DNA of 64,000 nucleotides from the human T2T-CHM13v2.0 reference genome, Homo sapiens, in the NCBI RefSeq assembly GCF_009914755.1, contig NC_060936.1. One strand, written 5' to 3'. Below, piece after piece: positions 7,582 to 17,000 of this stretch. Below the pieces are notes generated by a model. That model was not told where the DNA came from. It saw only the letters and a list, made by a program, of their open reading frames with translations, and did no database searches. A program made the position numbers and the translations under genes. Position 1 is the stretch's first letter. The number at the start of each line of letters is the position of its first letter.

Positions 7582-9563
<1,982 letters not shown>

Positions 9564-10046
9564 GCTGGTTTTCCCTTTTTACTTGGAATAAGATCCAAGT
9601 CCCTGCCATGTCTCACAAGACCCTGCATGGTAGGACCTCTGCCTTACTCTCTGACCTGTGCCACTATGACTCTCCTCTTTGCTCCTGGCACTTGCTGTCC
9701 CCACTCTCTGGAATGTTCTCCCACTAGATAATTCCATGACTTGCTCTCACTTCTTTCAGGTCTTTGCTCAGTGACACCTTCCCTGACCACTGAATTTTGG
9801 ATTGCCACCTCCAGCCTTCCTTATTCCTTTCTCAGCTTTATTTTTCTCCATAACCCAGCCACTCGGGTTCCATTCAGCCTCGGTCAGCTCTGCCTCCTCT
9901 GCCAGGGTTTGACAGACTGCATCTCCCCCAAAGCCCTTAAGGGTGGTCATACCTGATTGGGGGCTGGTCTAACTGTCACTTCTGATGGAGTCACCTCTCC
10001 GAGTCACTTTTTATCACATCACCCTGGGATAAGAATAGCCTTTCTC

Positions 10047-10648
<602 letters not shown>

Positions 10649-10814
10649 ACTACATCCCAGACTCCGTCTTTCAGAGCCCTCCTGTGGCCACTGCTATTGC
10701 CTGCTGCTGCTTCCCTGAGTCCCCTGTGGGAGCTGTTTGGGGTCCCTGAAGCAGCAGCTCTGGAGGTTAGTGTTGGAGAGACTCAGGCATCAGGGGCCTA
10801 GAGCTCAAGAAATA

Positions 10815-11142
<328 letters not shown>

Positions 11143-11515
11143 TGATTGAGTAAAGGAGAAGACTTCAGCAATGACAGGGCCTCGCCAGGTGAAGAAGGGA
11201 GCAGGGGCACTCAGAGCAGAAGGACCAGTGTGAACAAAGGACTAGAGGCCTGGGAGTACATGTCATATTTGAAGAAAGTGTTCTGATCTGGTGCTGTTGG
11301 AGGATTTTCAGGGGAGAGGGGTAGTAGGAGAGCTTTGCCGGCCTGGAAGGGGAGGGCTGGAAAAGGAGGGCTGGATGTGGAGGGCTGAGCTCCCTGCAGG
11401 ATCAGCAAGGCTCAGCATGTCTTAGGTTTAATCCTGCCCCCCACCGTCCGCCCCTCCTACTCCATCCCTGTCCTCCCCTTCACCCAGCCCCCAGCCTGGC
11501 CACAACTGCAGCTGA

Positions 11516-12034
11516 ATGGACTTCTCTCTGGGCCTACGCTTGGGGCCTAGGAATAAGAAGCCTGCCCACCAAGAGCCTCCTGCCTGCTCCAGGCATGGTC
11601 CACCTGCTGGCTCTCCTTGTCTGTCCTGTCCCCCATCTGCCTGTGCCTTCCCCTGCCATGGCTGTCCCCCACCCCCATGCTCCTGCACTGCCTGTCCCTC
11701 TAGTGCAGCTCCCTGCCCCGCTTGTCCCAGCCTCCCGGGCCCACCCTGCACCTGCTCTTGCCCCCGCTGCCCTGCCTGTCCTCCCTTGACTTGTCCCCAT
11801 AACTCCTGTGTCTCATGCTCCGGTCCACCCTTGACCTGCTGCCACCCCTCACCCTGCCCAGTTTACCCTTGCTCCATGAGCCGAGCTGCCTGTTTGAGCT
11901 CCCGTTTAGGCTGCAGTGATAGCTGTAGCTGTGGCCAAGGGGCTGCCTGGGGACCTCCAGGCTCCCTTGGCTGCTGTAGCTGCTGCTTCAGGGGACAACA
12001 ACGCACTTCTCGGGGGCGCTGTCTGATCATTTAG
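11516..12034 (+). CDS. Uncharacterised 172-aa Cys/Pro-rich protein with C-terminal CaaX box (CLII)
   Basis: ATG (+4 G, in-frame TGA directly upstream) to TAG in non-repeat sequence; 32 Cys and about 34 Pro; CxC/CxxC motifs; CaaX exactly at the stop; AATAAA at 12382-12387. Confidence 0.7.
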   Translation: MDFSLGLRLGPRNKKPAHQEPPACSRHGPPAGSPCLSCPPSACAFPCHGCPPPPCSCTACPSSAAPCPACPSLPGPPCTCSCPRCPACPPLTCPHNSCVSCSGPPLTCCHPSPCPVYPCSMSRAACLSSRLGCSDSCSCGQGAAWGPPGSLGCCSCCFRGQQRTSRGRCLII

Positions 12035-12381
12035 GTGGACTGTTGCCCACCAGGAGACTGTCAGTTTCCTGGAGCACTTCCGTACTGCTGCCCTGGCAAG
12101 GAGGCAGGAGCTGGGTGGAGTGGGAGAGGGATCAGCTGGACCCCTCCCTCAAGCAGGTAGAGGCAGCTGGCTTTCCCCAGTCCTGGAGAGGTGGCAGGGG
12201 GAATCTGCTTTGAAGTTAGTTTCTGGATGTGCTCCTGCTGGTTCCAGAACCTCTTCCTCTGCAACCTCTGGAATGGAAGGTGTTCTTCTCAGAGCCTCCC
12301 CCACGGCCCCTGAAGGTGAGCAAGTTGTCATTTCTTCCTCTCCACTGAGCCTCCATTGGAGTCTCCTCTGCAGTTCACATG

Positions 12382-12387
12382 AATAAA
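12382..12387 (+). terminator. Candidate polyadenylation signal for the Cys/Pro-rich ORF
   Basis: First AATAAA, about 350 nt after the stop codon. Confidence 0.55.
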
Positions 12388-12651
12388 TGGACTCTTCCTC
12401 TAGAGGAGCTGGAGTATCCTGGTCCAGAGGCCACTTCTTCTCCCTCTGACCTACACCCAAGATTGACCCAAGAGTCTCTGAATCCCTGACCTCTCACCTT
12501 GAGTCAGGCAGAGAGGGTCAGTGGCTTTTGGACCAGAAGAAGAGGCTGAGTGGAAGATATTTGGTTCCTCCCTCCACTTGGAAATCCTTGGCATCCTTTG
12601 TGGTCCTTTGTTTCTAGCCAGGAACCCTCTGCCTGGATGTCTTGTCTTTCA

Positions 12652-13273
<622 letters not shown>

Positions 13274-13666
13274 TCAAGCTTCTTTTTCTTAGCTGCCTTC
13301 TCTAGGACTCCTTTCGTTCTTGTCTTTATAGCTGTTTGTGTTTCCTTCTGTCTTTCTACCTCACTCTCTTCATTTCTGTTTCCTCCTCACTCTCTGTCAC
13401 TGGGACATTTTGCCTTCACCTAATTGTATCACCACATCTGTTTTCCCCACTCTCTATCCCTCTATTACTCTATCTAATTTGAAATCAATTTAACATATGT
13501 CTTCAGCACCATAGGAAAGGTTAAAAAAATTAGCATATGTGTTTTTCTTCCCCCTTCTCTTGTCTCAATCCTTGTCTTCATGCCTATTTTCTTCCTTGGT
13601 CTTTCCTTTTCCCTCATATCTCTCTGCTTTTCTGTCCTGTTCTGCTTCTGGGTGCATTTCATTCTT

Positions 13667-13966
13667 TTTGGGTTTTGTTGTTAGTTTTTTGTTGTTGTTT
13701 GGTTTTTTGAGACAGGGCTCGCTCTGTTGCCCAGGCTGGAATGCGGTGGTGCAATCAGAGCTCACTGAAGTTTCTAACTCCCAGGCTCAAGCGATCCCGG
13801 ACTACAGGCACGCACCACCACTCCTGGATAATTTTTTTTTAATTATTGTAGAGACAGGGTCTCACTATGTTACCCAGGCTGGTCCCAAACCTCTGGCCTC
13901 AAGCGATCCTCCCACCTCAGCCTCCCAAAGTGCTAGGATCACAAGTGTAAGCCACTGCACCTGACC
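13667..13966 (-). mobile_element. Alu (J-like) with TSD CATTTCATTCTT
   Basis: Direct repeats at 13655-13666 and 13968-13979. Confidence 0.9.
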
Positions 13967-14325
13967 ACATTTCATTCTTGATCTCTTCCATTTCTATTTC
14001 CCTTTCTTTGTCTCTCTTTCTGTCTTCTATGTCTAGCTGCTTTTTCACTTCCTATCTCTCTTTCTGCCTTCCCATATCTGGTTTGCTTTTATGCTGCCCC
14101 ATCCCCCCATCTCCCTATCTCTCTGGGTCCTGCACAATAGAGCACACTATGCCTGTCTCATGTCTTTGTCATTGCTGCCCAAGGGCCAGAACACTGAGCT
14201 CTCCACCAGTGTCTGTCATGGAAACACAGTCCATGCCCTGGAGTGAGCCGGGGTAGACATGTCTACCAGAATAGCCCCTCCTTTCCCCACTCACTATCCA
14301 GGCTATTCATTCCTGCTCAGCTTTA

Positions 14326-17000
<2,675 letters not shown>

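What the first reader, a model, noticed from the sequence alone, without database searches (positions are those of the whole stretch)
11516..12387. Candidate unnamed gene: intronless 172-aa Cys/Pro-rich protein between RARG and MFSD5
Seen: clean ATG-to-TAG ORF in unique DNA with a three-part layout: a non-repetitive head (MDFSLGLRLGPRNKK), a core with most of the 32 Cys and about 34 Pro in CxC/CxxC units (CLSC, CHGC, CSCTAC, CTCSCPRCPAC, CVSC), and a lipidation-type tail; AATAAA at 12382. The DNA is not a simple repeat, so the Cys periodicity looks selected at protein level. Known: the composition resembles disulfide-crosslinked structural proteins (KRTAP, LCE, SPRR, SMCP), CYSRT1-like Cys-tail proteins, or metallothionein-type metal binders. 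I recognise no name or function; it may already be an unnamed annotated locus. Inference: a membrane-anchored Cys-rich scaffold or metal-binding protein.
Basis: partly seen in the sequence, partly recalled or inferred. Interest (0 to 1): 0.88.

Follow-up and report, generated by a model that had tools for sequence, protein, structure and literature searches.

The report
Conserved prenyl-tailed Cys/Pro-rich orphan gene
This is a real, already annotated but never studied human gene (LOC122455340, mouse Gm9918) that placental mammals have kept intact, encoding a floppy cysteine- and proline-rich protein with a lipid-anchor signal at its end and a hint of eye-specific expression.

Summary
Window 11516-12034 (+) is a 172-aa ATG-to-TAG frame with 32 Cys and 34 Pro, ending in CLII. 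It is the coding part of RefSeq LOC122455340.

It is a real coding gene. 28 full-length relatives (164-180 aa, plus one 261-aa model) come from all four placental superorders. All keep the same start and the same stop. The head (residues 1-15) is 96% conserved, and the tail is C-[LQM]-I-[IV] in 29 of 29 sequences. Neutral drift would rarely keep this frame open.

The family stands alone:
- no Pfam family
- no solved relative
- no paralogue in the human genome
- nothing outside the placental clusters among 1.84 billion representative proteins

AlphaFold2 gives no fold (pLDDT 42.8).

Most likely it is a cytosolic, disordered, basic protein tethered to membranes by CaaX prenylation, probably geranylgeranyl. 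It may also be palmitoylated at an adjacent Cys cluster. What the cysteine array does (metal binding or acylation) is untested.

One paper places mouse Gm9918 in an eye co-expression module. I found no functional study in print. It is not a keratin-associated protein despite the automatic names.

The parts
11398..11434 (+). Proximal promoter block. It holds two TCAGCA words (11402-11407 and 11412-11417; MAF-type half-sites as I recall the motif) and one TAATCC (11429-11434; the K50-homeodomain CRX/OTX/PITX core as I recall it). They lie 59-91 bases upstream of the RefSeq start at 11493.
   Evidence: The paired TCAGCA occurs once in the window against 0.26 expected. TAATCC occurs 108 times in the window, so it is weak on its own. 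The 5' flank of another mammal, read through as the N-terminal extension of P0016, matches this stretch in shifted frames. This is a lead only.
11493..11515 (+). 5' UTR of NM_001395962.1 (23 bases). It has no upstream ATG and ends in an in-frame TGA at 11513-11515.
   Evidence: Hub annotation.
11516..12034 (+). Coding sequence of LOC122455340, 172 aa plus TAG.
   Evidence: 28 full-length relatives. Alignment A1. Neutral simulation.
11516..11560 (+). Head, residues 1-15 (MDFSLGLRLGPRNKK). It is the most conserved segment, with mean column identity 0.96. Its function is unknown; it may be a short binding or targeting motif.
11615..11986 (+). Cys/Pro-rich core, residues 34-157, with 30 Cys and 28 Pro. 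It contains six C-x-x-C-P units and few CC pairs. No fold is predicted for it.
11972..11986 (+). Cys cluster CCSCC, residues 153-157, lying 12-16 residues before the CaaX Cys. C157 is present in 29 of 29 sequences and C154 in 26 of 29. It is a candidate S-palmitoylation site (inferred).
11987..12019 (+). Basic linker, residues 158-168 (FRGQQRTSRGR). S165 is invariant and R159 and R163 are present in at least 90% of sequences. It may act as an electrostatic membrane contact and a basophilic-kinase site (inferred).
12020..12031 (+). CaaX box CLII, residues 169-172. This is the prenylation signal.
   Evidence: The consensus Caa[L/F/I/M/V] for GGTase-I comes from passages of PMC11304957 and PMC11152559.
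12035..12315 (+). 3' UTR as modelled by RefSeq. The model ends exactly at AAG|GTGAGC (12313-12321), which looks like a 5' splice site.
   Evidence: Hub annotation.
12382..12387 (+). AATAAA, the only canonical poly(A) signal in 11400-13000. It lies 67 bases beyond the RefSeq 3' end.

Best explanation
Window 11516-12034 (+) is the single coding exon of LOC122455340 (mouse Gm9918). It is a single-copy orphan gene inherited vertically since the placental ancestor.

How I think the protein works:
1. It has no signal peptide, no membrane span and no predicted fold, and it is basic (pI 8.5). It therefore stays on the cytosolic side. This is shown as far as sequence can show it.
2. Its C-terminal C-L-I-I box is recognised by a CaaX prenyltransferase. 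With Ile or Val at X and Ile at a2, this is most likely GGTase-I, adding geranylgeranyl, although farnesyl is not excluded. Cleavage of -LII and carboxymethylation would follow (inferred; about 0.8).
3. The prenyl group, the basic linker and probably S-palmitoylation of the CCxCC cluster 12-16 residues upstream hold the tail on a membrane (palmitoylation about 0.5).
4. The disordered core, with about 30 spaced cysteines (six C-x-x-C-P units) and three mostly conserved histidines, then lies along the membrane. It could act as a thiol array that binds Zn or Cu, or as further acylation sites (metal binding about 0.35).
5. The invariant 15-residue head is probably a docking motif for an unknown partner.
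6. Expression is probably tissue-restricted and eye-enriched, in photoreceptor or lens (about 0.6 in mouse, less certain in human).

Odds that it is a functional coding gene: about 0.97. The overall confidence given (0.6) is for steps 1-3 together, that is, a conserved coding gene whose product is a prenyl-anchored cytosolic membrane protein.
For: Coding and conserved:
- 28 of 28 hits cover 100% of the query at 62-94% identity. Lengths are 164-180 aa, plus one 261-aa model. The hits include Afrotheria, Xenarthra, Laurasiatheria and Euarchontoglires.
- 19 columns are invariant, including M1, D2, F3, S4, C169 and I171.
- Human Cys columns have mean identity 0.86, and 17 of 32 are kept in at least 27 of 29 sequences.
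- Cys count per sequence is 24-32 and Pro count is 27-41.
- The gene tree follows the species tree.
- A substitution-only neutral simulation at 0.35-0.5 changes per site keeps start, stop and frame in 0.5%-0.03% of runs. It gives 51-40% amino-acid identity and 47-36% of Cys kept. Observed identity to rodents is 65-73% (70-75% in alignment A1).
- The 5' flank of another mammal aligns to the human flank only across shifted frames, with stops. The coding part never shifts frame.

Tail: C 29/29; a1 is L in 24, Q in 3 and M in 2; a2 is I in 29/29; X is I in 10 and V in 19. The published consensus for GGTase-I is Caa[L/F/I/M/V], with branched aliphatic residues preferred at a2. Human GGTase-I modified CTII almost completely in yeast (passages).

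Cytosolic and disordered: the highest 19-residue hydropathy is 0.69 and pI is 8.52. AlphaFold2 with 29 sequences gave pLDDT 42.8, pTM 0.11 and no secondary structure.

Orphan: no Pfam family at E up to 10. Only 2 representatives at E<=0.001, both placental clusters. No PDB chain at E<=1. Only the gene itself in the human genome.

Eye: Gm9918 is listed among the 'high confidence' eye-module genes in Table 1 of PMC6951830 (section 3.3 read). The promoter is not a CpG island (observed/expected 0.14).
Against: - No lipid, metal or localisation data exist, so steps 2-5 are inference.
- CLII and CLIV themselves do not occur in the main text of the two prenylation papers I searched.
- CxxC and CxC counts are no higher than the composition gives. 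Several Cys positions vary between species (C153 in 13 of 29, C60 and C156 in 18 of 29). This fits a loose compositional constraint better than fixed metal sites.
- The eye link rests on one co-expression study in mouse. Its per-tissue tables (mmc3.xlsx, mmc1.pdf) could not be read.
- The promoter motifs are weak. TAATCC occurs 108 times in the window, and 23 of 100 shuffles give at least one paired TCAGCA.
- All relatives are predicted proteins, so broken copies would not appear in a protein database.
- The selection estimate uses neutral distances that I recalled and ignores indels. No orthologous DNA was available.
Confidence: 0.6

Rival explanations
1. It is a multiply S-acylated 'cysteine-string-like' membrane protein. 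After prenylation, many of the core cysteines are palmitoylated, so the whole chain is pinned flat to a membrane as a lipid-raft or vesicle scaffold, with no metal involved. This shares steps 1-3 with the best explanation and differs only in what the cysteines do.
For: - The CaaX box is invariant, and so is C157 close to it.
- The cysteines are spaced rather than adjacent, the chain is disordered and the net charge is basic.
- Individual Cys positions tolerate loss, as expected if number matters more than position.
Against: The classical cysteine strings that I recall are dense runs of adjacent Cys, whereas CC is depleted here (3 against 7.0 expected). Acylation cannot be tested with these tools.
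Confidence: 0.2
2. It is a structural cross-linking protein like high-sulfur keratin-associated or cornified-envelope proteins. It would be laid down in a terminally differentiating cell (hair cortex, epidermis or lens fibre) and locked by disulfides, or by transglutaminase through the Lys-Lys of the head and the Gln of the tail.
For: - Composition is 18.6% Cys and 19.8% Pro.
- Some sources name orthologues automatically as 'keratin-associated protein 12-4 / 9-8 / 5-9-like'.
- An Atlas cluster 'keratin-associated protein 3-1-like' scores 0.77, at rank 9.
- K14 and K15 are 97% conserved.
- The eye module also contains lens genes.
Against: - No KRTAP, LCE, cornifin or other Pfam family matches at E up to 10.
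- The Atlas score of 0.77 is below the tool's own lead threshold.
- CC pairs are depleted.
- The gene is single copy with one-to-one orthologues, not a clustered, expanding family.
- Intact copies exist in a beaked whale, a manatee and a pangolin. These are lineages where I recall hair keratin-associated genes being widely lost.
- A conserved CaaX box has no place in those families.
Confidence: 0.12
3. It is not a functional protein. The frame would be a chance ORF in GC-rich DNA inside a RefSeq-annotated enhancer (11404-12316), and any transcript would be noncoding.
For: - 51 of 1000 shuffles give an ORF this long.
- RefSeq annotates an enhancer over the same stretch (hub table).
- The base at -3 of the start codon is T, a weak Kozak context.
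- I found no proteomic or ribosome-profiling evidence.
Against: - Start, stop and frame are kept in 28 of 28 relatives across placental mammals.
- Neutral simulation gives at most a 0.5% chance per lineage at rodent-like distance.
- The upstream flank shifts frame while the coding part does not.
- Cys columns are the best conserved of the abundant residues.
Confidence: 0.03

Closest known systems
CaaX-prenylated, dually lipidated peripheral membrane proteins (tails of Ras/Rho GTPases, paralemmin; recalled)
   Same: A C-terminal Ca1a2X box is invariant in 29 of 29 sequences. Cysteines sit just upstream and could take palmitate. Basic residues and a conserved Ser lie between them.
   Different: There is no GTPase or other folded domain. 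The whole body is a disordered Cys/Pro-rich chain. No sequence relation to any of these proteins was found.
High-sulfur keratin-associated proteins (KRTAP)
   Same: Composition is Cys, Pro and Ser rich, the gene is intronless, and some orthologues carry automatic KRTAP names.
   Different: No Pfam match. CC dipeptides are depleted. The gene is single copy and lies outside any such cluster (hub table). It has a CaaX tail. It is kept in whale, manatee and pangolin.
Metallothioneins
   Same: Many cysteines occur in CxC and CxxC spacing. No fold is predicted without metal. The protein is small and cytosolic.
   Different: Cys content is 18.6%, not the roughly 30% I recall for metallothioneins. Pro content is 20%. 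Phe, Tyr, Trp and His are present. It is 172 aa long with a lipid tail. No Pfam match. The motif counts are no higher than composition gives.
Immunoglobulin G hinge core (recalled, short motif only)
   Same: Repeated C-P-x-C-P units (CPACP and CPRCPACP here; six C-x-x-C-P in all, 8 of 5000 shuffles reach this). In hinges, as I recall, such units form a stiff polyproline stretch with parallel inter-chain disulfides.
   Different: This is a resemblance of a five-residue motif only, with no homology. A cytosolic prenylated protein would normally be reduced.

Membership tests
CaaX prenylation substrates | Cys at the fourth position from the C-terminus | tested here: met
   C169 is present in 29 of 29 aligned sequences, and all end four residues later.
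CaaX prenylation substrates | Aliphatic a2 and an X residue accepted by FTase or GGTase-I | tested here: met
   a2 is Ile in 29 of 29. X is Ile in 10 and Val in 19. The consensus Caa[L/F/I/M/V] is quoted in passages of PMC11304957. CTII was nearly fully modified by human GGTase-I. CLII and CLIV themselves do not occur in those main texts.
CaaX prenylation substrates | Tail exposed to the cytosol (no signal peptide, no membrane span) | tested here: met
   The highest 19-residue Kyte-Doolittle mean is 0.69. The head is short and charged. No dedicated signal-peptide predictor was available.
CaaX prenylation substrates | Isoprenoid actually attached | not testable with these tools
   Needs metabolic labelling or mass spectrometry.
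Keratin-associated proteins | Match to a KRTAP family profile | tested here: not met
   Zero Pfam families at E up to 10. The Atlas similarity of 0.77 is below the lead level.
Keratin-associated proteins | Cys-Cys-containing short repeats (recalled definition) | tested here: not met
   CC is 3 against 7.0 expected, and 4960 of 5000 shuffles have at least 3. There is no tandem repeat in the DNA.
Keratin-associated proteins | Member of a clustered multigene family | tested here: not met
   The human genome search gives only the gene itself, with 22 candidates scored. Its neighbours are RARG and SLC61A1 (hub table).
Metallothioneins | Match to the family profile | tested here: not met
   Zero Pfam families at E up to 10. 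No PDB chain at E<=1.
Metallothioneins | CxC and CxxC motifs in excess; metal-thiolate clusters | tested here: inconclusive
   The motifs are present but no more frequent than the composition gives. Metal binding cannot be tested here.
Late cornified envelope / small proline-rich proteins | Match to the family profile | tested here: not met
   Zero Pfam families at E up to 10. The location on chromosome 12 comes from the hub table. That these families lie in the epidermal differentiation complex elsewhere is recalled.
CYSRT1-like Cys-tail proteins | Sequence similarity to CYSRT1 | not tested
   No direct comparison was made because no tool supplied a CYSRT1 sequence. Indirectly, no protein outside the orthologue clusters reached E<=0.001, and the human genome gave only the gene itself.

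The most novel reading that the evidence does not exclude
This would be a placental-specific invention: a geranylgeranylated, palmitoylated, intrinsically disordered thiol-array protein of photoreceptor (or lens-fibre) membranes. It would buffer or deliver Zn/Cu, or sense redox state, at the membrane. Its invariant 15-residue head would recruit a partner, and its prenyl tail would be carried by prenyl-binding chaperones. That would make it an unrecognised candidate gene for inherited retinal disease or cataract.
Probability: 0.2. Interest if true: 0.65.

Novelty: already known. Interest (0 to 1): 0.4.

Why it matters
The gene is already in RefSeq, and orthologues are annotated in many mammals, so nothing new is discovered at the level of the locus. 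What remains open is everything about the protein. It has no family, no fold, no paralogue and no detectable relative outside placental mammals. Even so, about 100 million years (a recalled figure) of selection have kept its head, its roughly 30 cysteines and its prenylation box. It is a clean, small and tractable piece of the human 'dark proteome'. The prediction that the C169-dependent lipid anchor controls localisation is testable, and there is a concrete tissue to look in first, the eye. If the eye link holds, the gene belongs on candidate lists for unsolved retinal or lens disease.

Tried and rejected
- Pfam at E up to 10: no family.
- Profile search against PDB sequences at E up to 1: nothing.
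- ESM Atlas: best score 0.84, to unnamed clusters, which is below the tool's lead level. No structure is held.
- AlphaFold2 with the 29-row alignment: no fold (pLDDT 42.8). I therefore ran no fold search.
- Profile search of 1.84 billion representatives: only the two placental clusters, so no distant family was found.
- Six-frame search of the human genome: only the gene itself. A recent retrocopy or a paralogue is rejected.
- Rfam on 9000-15000: nothing.
- Heme-regulatory Cys-Pro idea: CP is 10 against 6.8 expected, and 417 of 5000 shuffles reach it. Not supported.
- Excess of CxxC or CxC: not supported.
- TAATCC near the start site as evidence for CRX-type control: weak, because Alu copies give 108 sites in the window.
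- Paper searches for LOC122455340 and for NM_001395962, LOC123619506, LOC107401800 and A0A8C9ADG4: 0 papers each.
- Gm9918: 2 papers. One only lists it as a predicted target of a tRNA fragment (PMC10878346, one passage of Table 3).
- Supplements of PMC6951830: the readable text file has no Gm9918. mmc3.xlsx and mmc1.pdf could not be read.
- No complex prediction was run, because no binding partner is claimed.

Full report
**1. The observation**

The + strand of the window carries an ATG at 11516 and a TAG at 12032-12034, giving 172 codons. A TGA sits directly in front of the ATG. The translation has 32 Cys, 34 Pro and 24 Ser and ends in CLII. AATAAA at 12382 is the only AATAAA or ATTAAA between 11400 and 13000.

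The DNA is not repetitive. Tandem Repeats Finder reports nothing inside the frame; its two small arrays lie upstream at 11343-11387 and 11398-11417. The repeat finder gives only six short, imperfect two-copy direct repeats.

Two points need correcting:
- Length alone is not convincing: 51 of 1000 shuffles of the local 1.2 kb give a frame this long.
- The 'periodicity' is largely composition. In 5000 shuffles of the core, CxxC (9 against 6.9) and CxC (5 against 6.9) are unremarkable. C-x-x-C-P is enriched (6 against 1.57; 8 of 5000 shuffles reach it) and CC is depleted (3 against 7.0).

**2. It is a coding gene under selection**

The hub table shows that the frame is the coding part of RefSeq LOC122455340 (NM_001395962.1, one exon, 11493-12315).

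A search of 5.8 billion proteins returned 28 clusters at E <= 0.01, from 253 candidates. All cover 100% of the query at 62-94% identity. Lengths are 164-180 aa, apart from one 261-aa model. Named sources include:
- primates and many rodents (mouse and hamster entries are called 'predicted gene 9918')
- camel, pig, a beaked whale, donkey, meerkat, pangolin, bats and a mole
- an anteater (Xenarthra)
- a manatee and a tenrec (Afrotheria)

In the alignment, 27 of 29 sequences start at the same Met. The two longer ones carry species-specific upstream extensions. All 29 stop four residues after the same Cys. Residues 1-15 have mean identity 0.96. Human Cys columns average 0.86, the highest among the abundant residues, and 17 of 32 are kept in at least 27 of 29 sequences. 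C24 is specific to the human sequence (1 of 29). The gene tree reproduces primates, rodents, Laurasiatheria and Afrotheria-plus-Xenarthra, as expected for one-to-one orthologues.

Orthologous DNA was out of reach, so I simulated substitution-only neutral drift of the human coding sequence. At 0.35-0.5 changes per site (my recalled range for the human-rodent neutral distance), start, stop and frame all survive in 0.5%-0.03% of runs. Amino-acid identity falls to 51-40%, and only 47-36% of Cys remain. Observed identity to rodents is 65-73% in the search table (70-75% in alignment A1).

An internal control came by luck. The 261-aa model P0016 reads through its 5' flank. That extension matches the human 5' flank well, but only by hopping between reading frames and across stops. 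The coding part never changes frame. The chance-ORF reading is therefore all but excluded.

**3. What kind of protein**

Nothing known matches:
- no Pfam family at E up to 10
- no PDB chain at E up to 1 with the family profile
- no paralogue in a six-frame search of the human genome, with 22 candidates scored and only the gene itself passing
- only the two placental clusters in a profile search of 1.84 billion representatives

No relative outside placental mammals was found. An unannotated marsupial copy cannot be excluded, because only predicted proteins were searched.

AlphaFold2 with the 29-row alignment gives pLDDT 42.8, pTM 0.11 and no secondary structure. The ESM Atlas gives only sub-threshold neighbours. 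The chain is basic (12 Lys+Arg against 3 Asp+Glu, pI 8.52). It has no hydrophobic stretch (highest 19-residue hydropathy 0.69). It should therefore be cytosolic.

**4. The tail**

The last four residues are C-[L 24, Q 3, M 2]-I-[I 10, V 19]. Cys and the a2 Ile are present in 29 of 29 sequences.

Passages of PMC11304957 give Caa[L/F/I/M/V] as the GGTase-I consensus, with branched aliphatic residues preferred at a2. Passages of PMC11152559 report near-complete geranylgeranylation of CTII by human GGTase-I in yeast. Neither main text contains CLII or CLIV.

Twelve residues upstream lies a Cys cluster (C157 in 29 of 29, C154 in 26 of 29). Between the cluster and the CaaX box is a basic stretch with an invariant Ser (S165) after a nearly invariant Arg (R163).

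This layout is the one I recall from dually lipidated tails of small GTPases and paralemmin: prenyl plus palmitoyl or basic residues, sometimes with a regulatory phospho-Ser. My best reading is a prenyl-anchored peripheral membrane protein, probably also palmitoylated.

**5. The cysteine array**

A cytosolic location argues against disulfide cross-linking in living cells. The remaining options are soft-metal binding (Zn, Cu) or multiple S-acylation.

For metal binding: there are spaced CxxC pairs, five of them highly conserved (35/38, 47/50, 67/70, 85/88, 98/101), and mostly conserved His residues (alignment).

Against fixed metal sites: the motif counts are no higher than composition gives, and several Cys positions come and go between species.

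I give metal binding about 0.35 and an acylation scaffold about 0.2. The enriched C-x-x-C-P unit recalls immunoglobulin hinge cores, but that is a five-residue resemblance from memory, not a test.

**6. Not a keratin-associated protein**

Some sources name orthologues 'keratin-associated protein 12-4 / 9-8 / 5-9-like'. Against membership:
- no profile match
- CC pairs depleted
- a single copy between RARG and SLC61A1 (hub table)
- a conserved CaaX box
- intact copies in a whale, a manatee and a pangolin

**7. Where it may act**

'LOC122455340' and four other identifiers gave 0 papers. 'Gm9918' gave 2.

PMC6951830 (section 3.3 read, plus passages) lists Gm9918 among the 'high confidence' genes of a mouse eye co-expression module. 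Photoreceptor genes (Arr3, Cnga1, Pde6h, Kcnv2, Samd7) and lens genes (Cryba4, Crybb3, Grifin) are in the same list. It records one human and no zebrafish orthologue, and no phenotype. [quoted passage not shown] Its spreadsheets could not be read, so I cannot say whether retina or lens drives the signal. The other paper only lists Gm9918 as a predicted tRNA-fragment target.

The promoter is not a CpG island (observed/expected 0.14, against 0.65 at the SLC61A1 promoter). That fits tissue-restricted use. It carries two TCAGCA words and a TAATCC 59-91 bases upstream of the annotated start. These appear conserved in the one other flank I could see. As I recall the motifs, they suit NRL+CRX in photoreceptors or MAF+PITX3 in lens equally well. 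Statistically they are weak.

**8. Transcript ends**

The RefSeq model stops at 12315, exactly at AAG|GTGAGC, which looks like a 5' splice site. No poly(A) signal precedes that point. Either the mRNA runs on to about 12400, or it is spliced to a downstream exon. I could not decide this without RNA data.

**9. Verdict**

As a locus it is already known. As a protein it is an uncharacterised, placental-restricted orphan. It has a strongly conserved prenylation box, a conserved head motif and a plausible eye connection. Interest is moderate.

Noticed in passing
window 12313-12321 and 12382-12387: The RefSeq 3' end (12315) coincides with a consensus-like 5' splice site, AAG|GTGAGC, and has no poly(A) signal before it. 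The only AATAAA is 67 bases downstream. The single-exon model may be cut short or may miss a downstream exon.
   Followed up: partly
window 11343-11387: A 14-base unit (CTGGAAGAGGAGGG) is repeated 3.2 times just upstream of the promoter. Its meaning is unknown.
   Followed up: no
window 11398-11434: Two TCAGCA words 10 bases apart and a TAATCC lie 59-91 bases before the annotated start. The same words can be read from the 5' flank of another mammal, translated as the extension of P0016. This may be a MAF plus K50-homeodomain promoter.
   Followed up: partly
whole window: TAATCC occurs 108 times against 22 expected from shuffles. My reading is that this reflects the Alu content of the window; 36% of the window is masked as repeats in the hub table. 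Single CRX-type sites here therefore mean little.
   Followed up: no
alignment A1 / tree: The mole (Talpa, tip 0.38) and the tenrec (0.41) have the longest terminal branches, against a median of 0.13. The mole also lacks five residues of the core. This could mean relaxed constraint in a species with reduced vision, or just fast lineages. The tree tool did not flag either branch as long.
   Followed up: no
window 11534-11800 (-) and 11595-11789 (+): Overlapping frames of 88 aa (antisense) and 64 aa (another + frame) are open inside the gene. I take them as by-products of the GC-rich, stop-poor composition. They were not searched.
   Followed up: no
P0019 (pig) and P0016 (unnamed source): Two orthologue models carry in-frame upstream extensions of 10 and 91 residues. 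These are not conserved, and in human they are closed by a TGA at 11513. They are likely annotation artefacts in those species.
   Followed up: partly
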